From: Escherichia coli
Lineage (GTDB): Bacteria; Pseudomonadota; Gammaproteobacteria; Enterobacterales; Enterobacteriaceae
NCBI RefSeq assembly: GCF_013315695.1
Contig: NZ_CP054353.1
Length of the DNA stretch: 64,000 bases
Direction: 5' to 3' (one strand)
Shown: one piece after another, positions 6,001 to 9,000 of the stretch
How the letters are laid out: every line of letters begins with the position of its first letter
How positions within the stretch are numbered: the stretch's first letter is position 1
Position numbers: made by a program

Positions 6001-9000
6001 GCCCTCTCGTGCTCCTACGTAAAAAATCCATCACTTTTCCCCTGATACATCAACTCAAGGCGTTCTATGTGTTCCTTAGTGCATATTACGTTTATTATGT
6101 TAAATTGATTTTGGCCTATATTTTGACCTGCACCCGCATAAACACTGGTTTCATCGCTTACACTCCTTGTGAGACGTGGTGCTGTTTCTAGCATCTGATC
6201 CGACATAAAACCGATCATTCTCGTGTTTAGTGAAAGTTTAGTGAGAGACATTACAGAAAGGCTTTCTGTGTAATGATTTAATAGGTAAAAACGATGTTGA
6301 TTACGCAAGAAAATTCCTTGCTGATATTTGGGGATTCTGGATTTTCCAGATCGGGGGGCGCTGAAAATCGCGTTAAGCACCTCTCGCAATCTAGCCATAA
6401 GGGAAGGGATATAGGTATTTAGATGTATTTATAGCTATTTATGGCTATTTATTTTTTATTTGCCTTTATTTAAAAATAACCTTATAAATCAATAAGATAC
6501 ACAACTATCTGTTTATATTTTAATCAATTAAATCAAGTTTAATACCCTTAAATCACCTGAAAATACCCTTAAATACCCCAATAATTAATTTTAAGGTTTT
6601 CCGTGTTCTCTTCTGCATTATGAAAATGCAAAATAAGGCACAAAACAAGCGCACAGACGCATTAAACACACATCACCTATACATCCCTATACCAAGCAAT
6701 GAAAATAGCGTTAGAATGCGTCCTGTTGCGTTCTGGAGATTTTCAGAAATCCTCTCTAAGCCATTTCAACTCATTAAGGAGTTTTCTTTCTTCGTTCTCT
6801 CTCTGTTTACGCTCTAGCCAGGCTTTTCCTTCTGGCGTAGACAGGAACTTACGAGCGTGAATCTTGCGGTTATTACGTTTGATAGCTGCAATGTTTTTCA
6901 TCGTGTGCCTCTGTATTCATATGAAAATTAACAAGTTACATACTACACAGGGAGACTACGCATAAAACACAATACAAGTAAAGATACATTTTCAAGACAA
7001 TAGGAGCCATAAAGCGCCTTTGATGGGCTACCCCAAAAAATAAGCGCCGTAGGCGTATCCACTAAAAGGGCTTTTTCACAAAAGCTATGAAGTCTTAGCA
7101 GTTCTTCTCTTATCAGGCACCCGTTGTACTCCGGTGGACGAAACCGTGCTAGAGCTTGATTCTTTCCCGATCAAGTTAGGTTTTGAAGAGGTGGGCTTTG
7201 ATCCACTATTGCACTTAAAACTCTTCCCATCATTTAGCCTGTTTATCCTCTGCAACGTCTCACGACGTGTAGCATCATTGGACACCGCGCCAGGTGTGGA
7301 ACATCTTGCTAAGAGTTTTGGTAGAAGGTTTAGAGACGGTGGCACGTCTTCCAGCTTCAAAGGAACTTGTTACGAGGTTGAGCCTGGGAACTACTCGCCC
7401 ATACGTGTTACACTACCAAAGCCCATAACAACGTATAGGCGTTTGTAAGTGATAACAGAAGATACAATTTCTTAGAGAAGTTAAGCTAAGTTATTGATTT
7501 TCTTGATTGTGCGATAATAGGAACAATACACATAGGCGATAAGCTTTGTTTTTGTTGCCTTTTTTATTGTTCATTTTTTATAGATACCCCCAAAAGTACC
7601 CCCATATCTTTTTCCGCCCCTGAAATTTGGTTGTTATTCATACAGCATATCAGGCGGTAACGCTCTCCCTTTAACCCACTTATTGTATGATAGTGCTATC
7701 CCACAATAAGGAATCAGCCAGCCATGAGAATGACCAGCCGCAAAAAAGAGATACTTAGCTACTTTGAACCGGATAACCTCGAATGGGTGACTGGTGAGAT
7801 TGGTGCGCCGCCGTTCGATGTGTCGGGTGTGGCCTACCTGCTTCATGGCATGGTGTCGTTCGATAAGCGTCACCAGCTCGAATCAACCCGGCGCACACTG
7901 GAAAGCATGGTTGCTGGTGGACTGCTTGAGCGGGTGACAGTGTATGAATCGCGCCAGATACGGCGCGGCGGTGATACTAACGCAACGGTCGTGCGCTACG
8001 GTTTACCCGGTCAGTGCGCTGTTATGCGCGATACTGGCGGCGCTGACAACGCAATATCAGGTGAATACATGCGGGTCAGTTAATAGCCTGCAATCTGTCG
8101 TTGATGCGGCTCAGGTCGTAAACCCGGCGTTCAATATCCAGCATCAGGAAATTGTGGATCTCGGCCTGCTCAGGATTATCAGACTCTCTGGCCTGTAATA
8201 GCAATTCATTGTAACCATGCAAGCCGCCTGAGTTTTCCGCCGGGGTGGTGCCTTTCCCACGCAGGCAGCTAATGGGCTGATTACTCGTATCGTGTGTTTG
8301 CTTCTCCAGCACAATGACGCAATCCCACCAGTCGCCAAAGTCATACGTGTAAACCAGCTTGTCACCCTCATTCTGGAGCGCCGCCCATAGTGGCGTGATT
8401 GCCGCGTTACCCATGCTTTCATCCTCACCCCATACGCGATACTCGCTACCTGGATCACCTTTACGCCCTTTCTCGAACATATACAGGTGTTCGTCATTCC
8501 AGCCAAAAGCTAACTGGATCACGGCATGAAGTTTACTAAAGGGGATTTGCTCTGGAACCAGCACACGCCGCCATATAGGTGGTTTGCTGTCTCGGATGGT
8601 TATCTTTAGCTGGTACATGCAAATCCTGAATAAATGCGAATCGGAAGGATAACGATACTGACGTACTCACAATTCTGTAAAGGTGAATAAAGGAAATTTG
8701 CTTAATACGCATAAGTTACATGTGGAATAATCCCATATCTACCTGCGCGGCGCTGGCTTCTTCCACTGATAGGCAGGTGCTCGCATCATTTCGCGGAACC
8801 TGTCGCGCCGGGCTATATCGGCATTAACTGATCGTTCTATCTCCCGTTGATCTGCCTGTGTAAGCTGGTGGCCTCCGTGCTCAAGTTTGGCGATGGTCAA
8901 TAAGGCTATTTCGCGTGGTGTCATACGTCATACCCTCTGGAAGAATGAAACACGCCCGGATTAAATTTCATTTTTCGCGGGTATAAAAAAACGATGGGGC

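What the first reader, a model, noticed from the sequence alone, without database searches (positions are those of the whole stretch)
6743..6901. Unannotated 52-aa highly basic small ORF with a good ribosome-binding site inside the ORF-poor region
On the minus strand an ATG (6899-6901) preceded by GAGG at the right spacing opens a 52-codon frame, MKNIAAIKRNNRKIHARKFLSTPEGKAWLERKQRENEERKLLNELKWLREDF. It falls below the 60-aa cutoff of the ORF track. A basic small protein beside an iteron region could be a nucleic-acid-binding regulator.
Basis: seen in the sequence. Interest (0 to 1): 0.3.

Follow-up and report, generated by a model that had tools for sequence, protein, structure and literature searches.

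The report
Conserved small basic protein beside structured RNA
The 52-codon frame is a real, strongly conserved gene for a small basic protein of unknown function, and in a family of phage-satellite-like islands of enterobacteria it always sits just downstream of a roughly 450-base structured RNA that is absent from Rfam, so the two probably work together.

Summary
The ORF at 6743-6901 (-) exists as described: ATG, GAGG 6 nt upstream, 52 aa, net charge about +7, all of it in residues 1-21. An ORF of this size is not above chance; its conservation is. About 50-aa homologues occur in at least ten genera of Enterobacterales, with an invariant core KRNNRKIHARKFL.T.EG..WL. In that core every codon varies at the third position only (core pS 0.67, pN 0.05). 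The ATG and a GAGG/GGAGG box are kept although the upstream sequence diverges. It is a genuine gene.

It is not unannotated. RefSeq lists it as a hypothetical protein (WP_001570982.1), and the module is in 509 of 5426 complete E. coli genomes. No Pfam, NCBIfam, PHROG or PADLOC family matches, and neither does any solved structure.

It is the first gene inside the tRNA-proximal att end of a ~13-kb island. In the intact copy L001 that island encodes Rep, major capsid, tape-measure, Dit and integrase; the window copy has lost Rep and capsid to an IS2-linked deletion.

Directly upstream, on the same strand, is a ~450-nt RNA (6982-7461): 18 helices, 37 compensatory pairs, no Rfam hit. RNA and ORF travel together wherever tested.

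Best guess, at moderate confidence: the protein binds this RNA. An iteron or DNA-binding role is neither supported nor excluded.

The parts
6743..6901 (-). Small ORF: 52 aa plus stop, MKNIAAIKRNNRKIHARKFLSTPEGKAWLERKQRENEERKLLNELKWLREDF. Genuine protein-coding gene; basic N-terminal helix and an amphipathic, charge-balanced C-terminal helix.
   Evidence: sequence. (homologues). (frame, start and RBS conserved; third-position-only variation in the core; core pS 0.67 vs pN 0.047). (AF2 pLDDT 89, helices 4-21 and 23-51). (annotated by PGAP).
6908..6911 (-). Shine-Dalgarno GAGG, 6 nt upstream of the ATG.
   Evidence: A GAGG/GGAGG/AGGGG box about 6-8 nt upstream of the ATG is present in every homologous locus where upstream sequence is held, although the surrounding upstream sequence diverges.
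6982..7461 (-). About 450-480-nt structured non-coding RNA on the same strand as the ORF, ending about 80 nt before its ATG. 18 helices including a 5'-3' closing helix. The E. coli type carries a ~43-nt insertion in the loop of one hairpin.
   Evidence: conserved 70-83% across genera. (RNAalifold: 83 pairs, 37 with compensatory double changes). (96.6% of cells paired vs 33-42% when partners are slid; 0/500 shuffles reach the observed values). (3-15 stops in most frames; no frame open throughout). (no Rfam 15 family). (nhmmer).
7091..7251 (-). Most conserved core of the RNA, carrying near-invariant stretches AUAAACAGGC, CGGGAAAGA, CACGGUUUC, CACCGGA and CCUGAUAAGA.
   Evidence: covariance model R1, built without any E. 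coli-type sequence, hits here with 93 bits, E 2.6e-19. It is the only hit in the 64-kb window.
7509..7523 (-). att repeat derived from the 3' end of tRNA-Thr(CGT): the right-hand boundary of the island that carries the RNA and the ORF. In strains with a single island the intact thrW tRNA sits here.
592..606 (-). Second att repeat (TCCTCTTATCGGCAC), the far boundary of the island, next to the integrase gene.
752..2026 (+). Tyrosine integrase of the island. It would be divergent from the RNA-ORF module across attP if the element circularises (inferred).
5131..6742 (.). Remaining part of the AT-rich ORF-poor region downstream of the small ORF (2.5-2.8 kb in intact copies), with dispersed CTGTGTAAT repeats and short tandem repeats. 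In the window its far end, together with Rep, the small genes, the capsid gene and the 5' part of the tape-measure gene, is missing next to IS2.

Best explanation
Shown. The ORF is a real gene encoding a ~50-aa protein with an invariant basic N-terminal helix (KRNNRKIHARKFL), a TPEG turn and a variable amphipathic C-terminal helix. It is the first gene inside the tRNA-proximal att end of a family of ~13-15-kb integrative, phage-satellite-like islands of Enterobacterales. These encode Rep, major capsid protein, tape measure, Dit and, in most members, an integrase; no ORF large enough for a terminase or portal is present. The ORF is always preceded, on the same strand, by a ~450-nt RNA with strong covariation support. 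The pair stays together although the integration site (tRNA-Thr, tRNA-Leu, a sodB-adjacent site), the downstream cargo, the gene order and even the presence of an integrase change.

Inferred. RNA and ORF form one functional module and are probably co-transcribed; most copies have no obvious terminator between them. In a single-island strain transcription may run in from the tRNA gene. The protein most likely acts as an RNA-binding cofactor: the arginine/lysine/asparagine-rich N-terminal helix would contact the RNA, as arginine-rich-motif peptides and small ribosomal proteins do, and the C-terminal helix would serve for self-association or a partner contact. The resulting RNP, or autoregulatory leader-protein pair, would then act in the island's control circuit. 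Which step it controls (maintenance, induction or helper exploitation) cannot be told from sequence.
For: Real gene. Homologues occur in Escherichia, Klebsiella, Raoultella, Enterobacter, Citrobacter, Kluyvera, Kosakonia, Pantoea, Winslowiella and Mangrovibacter. All 13 invariant core codons vary synonymously and only at the third position. Variable sites by codon position are 27/26/48, median pN/pS is 0.30, and in the core pS is 0.67 against pN 0.047. The ATG and SD box are conserved although the upstream sequence diverges.

Structured RNA. 37 of 83 pairs show compensatory changes; 96.6% of cells are paired against 33-42% in the slid controls; 0/500 shuffles reach the observed values; many G-U pairs fix the strand. 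The region is non-coding.

Linkage. nhmmer finds the RNA directly upstream of the ORF in about 60 of the 75 sequences held at that point. An RNA-motif scan of IMG/VR returned 37 contigs; nearly all are contigs already found with the protein, and one new contig (L108) is cut too close to the motif to tell. CM hits lie at the expected position in the divergent L075 (E 4e-11) and in the integrase-less L007-L009 (E 0.03-0.17).

Protein features. The positive charge is concentrated in residues 1-21. The model is confidently two-helical. There is a weak bL34-like pattern.

Context. tRNA-to-ORF spacing is 570-700 nt in the same orientation.
Against: There is no direct evidence of RNA binding. The protein matches no known RNA-binding family, and the bL34 resemblance is not significant (hhalign probability 2.6%).

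Co-occurrence is equally explained if the RNA is only a long cis-acting leader, or if the two are merely neighbours at a conserved element end.

A near-consensus sigma-70 promoter lies between RNA and ORF in L007, so the ORF may have its own transcript there.

The 80-100-nt spacer is unconserved, and in the window it shows no significant structure around the RBS (z = -0.04).

A small basic helical protein could just as well bind DNA.
Confidence: 0.4

Rival explanations
1. DNA-binding regulator, broadly the first reader's idea. The basic helix binds operator or iteron-like repeats of the island and represses or activates its replication or late genes.
For: The protein is small, basic and helical. 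CTGTGTAAT repeats and tandem repeats lie 180-1300 bp downstream in the E. coli type. A Rep gene lies further downstream in intact copies.
Against: The downstream region is not conserved among relatives and is replaced by unrelated cargo, yet the protein core is invariant. An invariant DNA-recognition helix would predict an invariant site, and none was seen outside the RNA region. No HTH, RHH or winged-helix family or fold matches. In L007 the ORF is about 5 kb from the Rep module.
Confidence: 0.2
2. Excisionase or recombination directionality factor: a small basic protein next to attP that bends DNA and directs the integrase towards excision.
For: It is the first gene next to the att site. After circularisation it would be divergent from the integrase across attP. 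Its size and charge are typical of RDFs.
Against: It is present, with the RNA, in the 13.5-kb L007-L009 units, where no integrase gene was called. The same invariant protein serves islands at tRNA-Thr, tRNA-Leu and a sodB-adjacent site, whose att-proximal DNA differs. There is no match to Xis, AlpA or HTH_17 families, and the predicted fold is two long helices, not a winged helix.
Confidence: 0.1
3. N-like processive antiterminator, a special case of RNA binding. The ARM-like helix binds a hairpin of the leader RNA and modifies RNA polymerase so that it reads through the ORF-poor or cargo region into the Rep and morphogenesis genes.
For: The layout of leader RNA, then a small basic protein gene, then a long co-directional gene set recalls lambda pL-nutL-N (layout; the lambda facts are established knowledge). 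An invariant hairpin with a purine-rich loop, CGGGAAAGA, is present.
Against: In L007-L009 the ORF is followed by a terminator-like hairpin and convergent genes. In several relatives the cargo genes downstream are on the opposite strand. A 450-nt multi-helix RNA is far larger than a nut site. No similarity to N, Q or Nun families was found.
Confidence: 0.1
4. Effector against the host or the helper phage, for example a toxin held in check by the upstream RNA (type III TA-like layout), or a ribosome or RNA-polymerase binder mimicking bL34.
For: The order RNA-then-ORF resembles toxI-toxN (established knowledge). There is a weak bL34-like motif. The neighbouring position is a cargo hotspot that holds an R-M system in some relatives.
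Against: The RNA is a single complex fold, not the tandem short repeats that define type III antitoxins. The protein is about 50 aa, not a ~170-aa ToxN-like nuclease. bL34 homology is not supported. There is no PADLOC hit.
Confidence: 0.05
5. Chance ORF or non-functional leader peptide.
For: Many ORFs of this size occur by chance. No known family matches.
Against: An invariant amino-acid core coexists with near-saturated synonymous change, and the start, stop region and SD are conserved across at least ten genera.
Confidence: 0.02

Closest known systems
Phage lambda N protein with the nutL leader (arginine-rich-motif peptide plus RNA hairpin)
   Same: A small basic protein whose N-terminal basic helix would be the recognition element. 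Its gene lies directly downstream of a structured leader RNA at the start of a long operon of a mobile element.
   Different: No sequence or family match. The RNA is ~450 nt with 18 helices rather than a 15-nt boxB. The protein is half the size of N. In L007-type elements no operon follows the ORF to be antiterminated.
Satellite phage P4 immunity region (CI RNA processed from the leader of the replication operon)
   Same: An integrative satellite-like element at a tRNA gene (P4 uses leuX; some of these islands use tRNA-Leu CAA), with a functional RNA encoded at the start of the operon that leads to the replication genes, followed by small ORFs.
   Different: No Rfam match to any family. No conserved antisense target sites for the RNA were found in the islands. 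The RNA is about six times longer than CI RNA. The gene content (own capsid, tape measure, Dit) is unlike P4.
Ribosomal protein bL34 (Pfam Ribosomal_L34)
   Same: Similar size. A local pattern KR...K.H..RK.[LM].T..G+..L.R+ aligns with one to three gaps; the only PDB sequence hits other than a PadR-family regulator are bL34 chains.
   Different: E-values are 0.8-2. There is no Pfam hit. hhalign probability is 2.6%. The C-terminus is acidic or amphipathic rather than poly-basic. This is a resemblance, not membership.
ColE1 Rop/Rom with RNA I and RNA II
   Same: A small helical protein encoded next to a ~500-nt structured RNA of a mobile replicon; Rop acts by binding RNA.
   Different: Rop is acidic and forms a four-helix-bundle dimer. 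No sequence or fold match. These islands encode a Rep initiator, so RNA-primed ColE1-type replication is not indicated.
Phage and island excisionases (Xis, AlpA, Cox, TorI)
   Same: Small, basic, and encoded next to the attachment site.
   Different: No family match. The predicted fold is not a winged helix. The gene is retained in elements without an integrase.

Membership tests
Genuine protein-coding gene | Reading frame, start codon and approximate length conserved in homologues from other genera | tested here: met
   an ATG lies 9-12 codons before the core, and the stop about 29-33 codons after the core begins, in 71 of 75 loci. The few truncated copies are exceptions.
Genuine protein-coding gene | Purifying selection on the amino-acid sequence (synonymous well above non-synonymous change) | tested here: met
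   core pS 0.67 vs pN 0.047; whole-ORF median pN/pS 0.30; variable sites by codon position 27/26/48.
Genuine protein-coding gene | Conserved ribosome-binding site | tested here: met
   GAGG/GGAGG/AGGGG about 6-8 nt upstream of the ATG in every locus where upstream sequence is held.
Genuine protein-coding gene | Direct evidence of translation (Ribo-seq, mass spectrometry) | not testable with these tools
   No expression data are accessible. A full-text search for the peptide found nothing.
Ribosomal protein bL34 | Significant match to the Ribosomal_L34 profile or to bL34 sequences | tested here: not met
   Pfam: no hit for any of 22 members. PDB hmmsearch E 0.8-2. hhalign probability 2.6%.
Lambdoid N / ARM antiterminators | Match to an N-family profile, and a boxA/boxB-type nut site followed by terminators and a co-directional operon | tested here: not met
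   No Pfam or PHROG hit. In L007-L009 the downstream genes are convergent.
Lambdoid N / ARM antiterminators | Arginine-rich helix that binds an RNA hairpin | not testable with these tools
   Composition is compatible: 7 K/R and no acidic residue in residues 1-21. Binding cannot be computed here.
Excisionase / RDF | Xis, AlpA, HTH_17 or Cox-type winged-helix or HTH domain | tested here: not met
   No family hit. AF2 gives two long helices.
Excisionase / RDF | Obligate co-occurrence with a cognate integrase | tested here: not met
   No integrase gene was called in the 13.5-kb L007-L009 units, and none was detected by tblastn with the L001 integrase.
Type III toxin-antitoxin | Antitoxin made of tandem short RNA repeats upstream of a ToxN, CptN or TenpN-type nuclease | tested here: not met
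   The RNA is a single complex fold without tandem repeats. The protein is ~50 aa with no PADLOC or Pfam hit.
Any Rfam 15 RNA family (for the upstream RNA) | Covariance-model match at or near the gathering score | tested here: not met
   No match up to E = 1 in window 4500-9000. Only chance-level hits (E 2.6-7, wrong strand) in L017.
Structured non-coding RNA (generic) | Base pairs maintained by compensatory substitutions beyond what relatedness alone gives, and no conserved reading frame | tested here: met
   (37 compensatory pairs vs 6-9 in the slid controls; 0/500 shuffles). (stops in all frames).
Described phage-satellite families (P4-like, PICI, cfPICI, PLE, PICMI) | Hallmark gene sets (P4: alpha primase, sid, psu, delta; PICI: alpA, pri-rep, terS; cfPICI: capsid, protease, portal, adaptors, terS; the gene sets are established knowledge) | tested here: inconclusive
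   The island has int, a Rep with an HTH_36 domain and a weak DUF6945 match, an MCP of the Phage_cap_E family, a tape measure and Dit, and no ORF large enough for a terminase or portal. This does not fit the listed sets. No dedicated satellite classifier was available, and several small ORFs remain unidentified.

The most novel reading that the evidence does not exclude
The small protein and the adjacent ~450-nt ornate RNA are the two components of a ribonucleoprotein that I could not find described. It would be a hallmark of a family of capsid- and tail-gene-carrying phage satellites of Enterobacterales that I also could not find described. The module is present in about 9% of complete E. coli genomes, including APEC O1 and O104:H4. 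The RNP would control the satellite's life cycle or its exploitation of a helper phage.
Probability: 0.3. Interest if true: 0.8.

Novelty: new variant of a known kind. Interest (0 to 1): 0.55.

Why it matters
Small proteins are systematically under-studied. This one is an unusually clean case: an invariant 20-residue core across at least ten genera, and presence in about one complete E. coli genome in eleven, including pathogens.

Its constant partner is a large, covariation-supported RNA that is absent from Rfam. Large structured bacterial RNAs with dedicated protein partners are rare, and each has revealed new biochemistry (RNase P, tmRNA, OLE).

The carrier island also looks like a phage satellite with an unusual gene set: its own capsid, tape measure and Dit, but no ORF large enough for a terminase or portal. 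If the RNA-protein pair controls such an element, it would give a new handle on satellite-helper biology. It would also provide a compact RNA-peptide recognition pair that is easy to test: a 50-aa synthetic peptide against a 450-nt transcript.

Tried and rejected
1. Family searches with the single protein and with 22 aligned members against Pfam, NCBIfam, PHROGs and PADLOC found nothing credible. CSLinker at E 0.13 is an algal pyrenoid linker motif and a chance hit.

2. bL34 homology was suggested by PDB hmmsearch. Pfam and hhalign against a bL34 alignment (probability 2.6%) do not support it.

4. tblastn of the protein against the phage and plasmid collections returned nothing. This is probably BLAST low-complexity masking, because DNA searches do find it in records filed as plasmids, so these negatives were disregarded.

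5. I searched for P4-CI-like antisense targets of the RNA within the islands. Only scattered, non-recurrent 11-12-mers turned up.

6. RBS sequestration by local structure in the window copy: none (z = -0.04).

7. A coding reading of the upstream conserved region, including the 91-aa and 104-aa ORFs at 7085-7448, was rejected. Every frame is interrupted by stops in relatives, and many indels are not multiples of three.

8. Consensus promoter scans found no consistent sigma-70 promoter upstream of the RNA. One good promoter lies between RNA and ORF, only in L007.

9. Literature searches for the peptide, for thrW plus satellite or structured RNA, and for satellites with tape-measure and Dit genes found no description.

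10. The second 49-aa gene in L007 is unrelated; the equal length is a coincidence.
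Full report
**Observation.** It has an ATG at 6899-6901, GAGG at 6908-6911 (6-nt spacer), and codes for 52 aa. The protein has pI 10.4 and net charge about +6.6. The charge is polarised: residues 1-21 carry 7 K/R and no acidic residue, while residues 22-52 are about neutral. An ORF of this length is not remarkable by itself, since 79 ORFs of at least 30 aa overlap 3000-11000. The claim 'unannotated' is wrong for public records. PGAP annotates this ORF as a hypothetical protein: WP_001570982.1 in NZ_OZ547117.1, which is 99.9% identical to the window over 5200-8700, and WP_000788777.1 in APEC O1 and KSC64.

**Is it a gene?** Yes.
- The protein search returned 57 cluster representatives at E <= 0.01, most of them ~50-aa proteins. 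Translated searches returned 16 loci in species-representative genomes and 49 in IMG/VR. The hosts are Escherichia, Klebsiella, Raoultella, Enterobacter, Citrobacter, Kluyvera, Kosakonia, Pantoea, Winslowiella and Mangrovibacter.
- The alignment has an invariant core KRNNRKIHARKFL-[AS]-T-P-E-G-x-x-W-L, followed by a variable but always amphipathic C-terminal segment.
- In 71 of 75 loci an ATG lies 9-12 codons before the core and a stop follows about 29-33 codons after the core begins.
- A GAGG/GGAGG box sits about 6-8 nt upstream of that ATG in every locus where upstream sequence is held, although the surrounding upstream sequence is not alignable between subfamilies.
- Across 43 unique nucleotide sequences, each of the 13 invariant core codons shows synonymous variants, and only at the third position. 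Variable sites by codon position are 27/26/48. Median pairwise pN/pS is 0.30. In the core pS is 0.67 against pN 0.047.
- This pattern cannot come from conservation at the DNA or RNA level. It is selection on the amino-acid sequence.

**What kind of protein?** No Pfam, NCBIfam, PHROG or PADLOC family matches any of 22 members. An exhaustive profile search of 1.84 billion representatives finds only this narrow family plus a few proteins sharing the short [FL]x[ST]PEGxxW helix-cap motif. AlphaFold2 with the family alignment gives a confident model (pLDDT 89) of two helices, 4-21 and 23-51, joined at TPEG. Fold searches are uninformative. A PDB profile search gives weak hits, E 0.65-2, to a PadR-family regulator and to bL34 chains. 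The bL34 alignment shows an eye-catching pattern, but Pfam and hhalign (probability 2.6%) do not support homology.

**Context.**
- The window is E. coli chromosome at the thrW (tRNA-Thr CGT) island site between proA and yagU.
- The ORF belongs to an island bounded by att repeats at 592-606 and 7509-7523.
- Intact copies (L001, APEC O1) read, in tRNA orientation: att; ~450 nt conserved non-coding; small ORF; 2.5-2.8 kb AT-rich ORF-poor DNA; two tiny genes; a Rep-like protein (HTH_36 domain, a weak DUF6945 match, and matches to replication-initiator PHROGs); five small genes; a major capsid protein (Phage_cap_E); a tape-measure protein; a Dit-like tail protein; an oppositely oriented tyrosine integrase; att.
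- No ORF in the island is large enough for a terminase or portal. It therefore looks like a phage satellite, with a gene set I could not match to described families. Its capsid protein is at most 25% identical to any sequenced phage's.
- In the window an IS2-associated deletion has removed the stretch from Rep to the 5' part of the tape-measure gene. A second island lies in tandem between this one and the position where thrW would sit. No tRNA gene is present in the window itself.
- In relatives the small ORF starts 570-700 nt after the 3' end of tRNA-Thr(CGT) or tRNA-Leu(CAA), in the same orientation. Another site lies next to sodB.
- The segment just downstream of the ORF is a cargo hotspot. 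It holds an R-M system in Klebsiella L003-L006 and other genes in L015 and L017, and shows almost no DNA similarity between subfamilies.

**The upstream RNA.**
- The stretch between att and the ORF is more widely conserved than the ORF itself, 70-83% across genera, and shows obvious compensatory changes.
- RNAalifold on 19 non-redundant sequences predicts 83 pairs in 18 helices, including a 5'-3' closing helix. 37 pairs carry double compensatory changes (an independent 13-sequence run is).
- On the named structure, 96.6% of cells are standard pairs against 33-42% when the 3' partners are slid by 1-3 columns. Compensatory pairs number 37 against 6-9. None of 500 shuffles reaches any of the five observed measures.
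- Many conserved G-U pairs place the RNA on the ORF strand.
- Nearly every frame contains 3-15 stops and no frame is open throughout; many indels are not multiples of three.
- No Rfam 15 family matches.
- A covariance model of the 117-nt core, built without any E. coli-type sequence, hits window 7091-7251 (-) at 93 bits, E 2.6e-19. It is the only hit in the 64 kb. The E. coli type has a ~43-nt insertion in one hairpin loop.

**Linkage of RNA and ORF.**
- nhmmer finds the RNA ending about 80-100 nt before the ATG in about 60 of the 75 sequences held at that point.
- A scan of IMG/VR with an RNA-only motif returned 37 contigs. Nearly all are contigs already found with the protein; one new contig (L108) is cut too close to the motif to tell.
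- In the divergent sodB-site island the model hits about 380 nt upstream of the ORF, E 4e-11.
- The L007-L009 contigs form a 13,531-bp repeat unit, hence circular or concatemeric. They have a different gene order and no called integrase. They still carry a recognisable, divergent copy with compensatory changes directly upstream of their ORF (CM E 0.03-0.17 at the expected place in all three).
- The pair therefore survives changes of integration site, integrase, cargo and gene order. That is the main argument that the two function together.

**Mechanism.** Shown: a real gene; a real structured RNA; tight physical linkage; same strand; a position at the att-proximal end of a satellite-like island. 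Everything beyond this is inferred.
- The most economical reading is that the basic, invariant N-terminal helix recognises the RNA, as arginine-rich-motif peptides and small ribosomal proteins do. The variable amphipathic C-terminal helix would provide self-association or a partner contact. The pair would act as an RNP or as an autoregulated leader-protein unit in the island's control circuit. I put this at about 0.4.
- Rivals: a DNA-binding regulator of the repeat-bearing region (0.2); an excisionase (0.1, weakened by the integrase-less elements and the varied att sites); an N-like antiterminator (0.1, weakened by the convergent downstream genes in L007-L009); a toxin or ribosome-directed effector (0.05).
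- Transcription architecture is unresolved. There is no consistent sigma-70 promoter upstream of the RNA, which leaves read-through from the tRNA gene as a possibility. One good promoter lies between RNA and ORF in L007 only. There is no significant RBS-occluding structure in the window copy. I found no conserved antisense targets for the RNA within the islands.

**Comparison with known systems.**
- In layout the module resembles lambda nutL-N and the RNA-based immunity leader of satellite P4. In 'small helical protein next to a ~500-nt replicon RNA' it resembles ColE1 Rop. It is a member of none of these: each membership feature I could test was not met.
- The gene is known to databases only as a hypothetical protein.
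- I could not find the RNA or the island family in Rfam, among 50,697 sequenced phage records, or in the searchable literature. This does not prove that they are undescribed.

**Verdict.** Its functional guess is plausible in kind (nucleic-acid binding) but points at the wrong neighbour. The result is a well-supported small protein family of unknown function, coupled to a covariation-supported large RNA, and present in 509 of 5426 complete E. coli genomes. Interest is moderate to fairly high, mostly because of the RNA-protein pairing and the unusual carrier island. The mechanism remains an inference.

Noticed in passing
window 6982-7461 (-); core 7091-7251: A ~450-nt structured RNA lies directly upstream of the small ORF: 18 helices, 37 compensatory pairs, no Rfam 15 match. 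It is conserved across Enterobacterales islands at tRNA-Thr, tRNA-Leu and a sodB-adjacent site.
   Followed up: yes
window 592-7523; compare L001 900-14400 and L114 8880-18719: The carrier is a ~13-kb satellite-like island (int, Dit, tape measure, capsid, Rep; no ORF large enough for a terminase or portal), with a gene set I could not match to P4-like, PICI, cfPICI or PLE. The window copy has lost about 6.4 kb, from Rep to the 5' part of the tape-measure gene, next to IS2 (window 3846-5130).
   Followed up: partly
window 6350-6395: A 46-nt stretch is 95.7% identical to a gene-poor region of rV5-like E. coli myophages of ~146 kb (Antha, PD06, Paula and others). The island's capsid protein is also distantly related (at most 25% identity) to capsid proteins of PB1-like Pseudomonas myophages, and the hit list includes four records labelled Escherichia or Campylobacter that I did not inspect. 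This is a possible clue to the helper phage.
   Followed up: partly
window 5494-6274 and 5381-6735: CTGTGTAAT occurs four times, all on the + strand and only here in 64 kb (0.42 expected). There are also several short tandem repeats: 22-bp x2 at 5423, 10-bp units at 6410 and 6541. They look like iterons, but their function and their conservation outside E. coli were not established.
   Followed up: partly
L003-L006 8295-10781; L015 and L017 10200-13400: The position immediately downstream of the small ORF is a cargo hotspot. It holds an 828-aa fused methyltransferase/restriction-endonuclease (Eco57I/BsuBI-PstI domains) in Klebsiella and other opposite-strand genes elsewhere. In E. coli the same position is 2.5-2.8 kb of AT-rich ORF-free DNA.
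   Followed up: partly
L007 1-15689 (also L008, L009): Metagenome and SRA contigs form a 13,531-bp exact repeat unit (circular or concatemeric). They carry the RNA-ORF module, a tape measure, Dit, a 348-aa capsid-like protein and Rep, but no called integrase. This may be an extrachromosomal or packaged form of a related element.
   Followed up: partly
window 7524-14579 and beyond; window 1-590: Islands are arrayed in tandem at thrW. A second island follows (pRiA4b ORF-3 family protein, PerC, P22 gp16-like ejection protein, IS1), and a remnant with a similar att-proximal sequence lies left of 590. ARAGORN finds no tRNA anywhere in the window, and collinearity with L001 ends at an IS1 near 14579.
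   Followed up: no
protein P0087 (255 aa): The helix-cap motif [FL]x[ST]PEGxxW of the small protein recurs five times in tandem, about every 20 residues, in an unrelated protein whose N-terminus looks GIY-YIG-like by eye. Pfam gives no hit. This may hint at a modular nucleic-acid-binding repeat.
   Followed up: no
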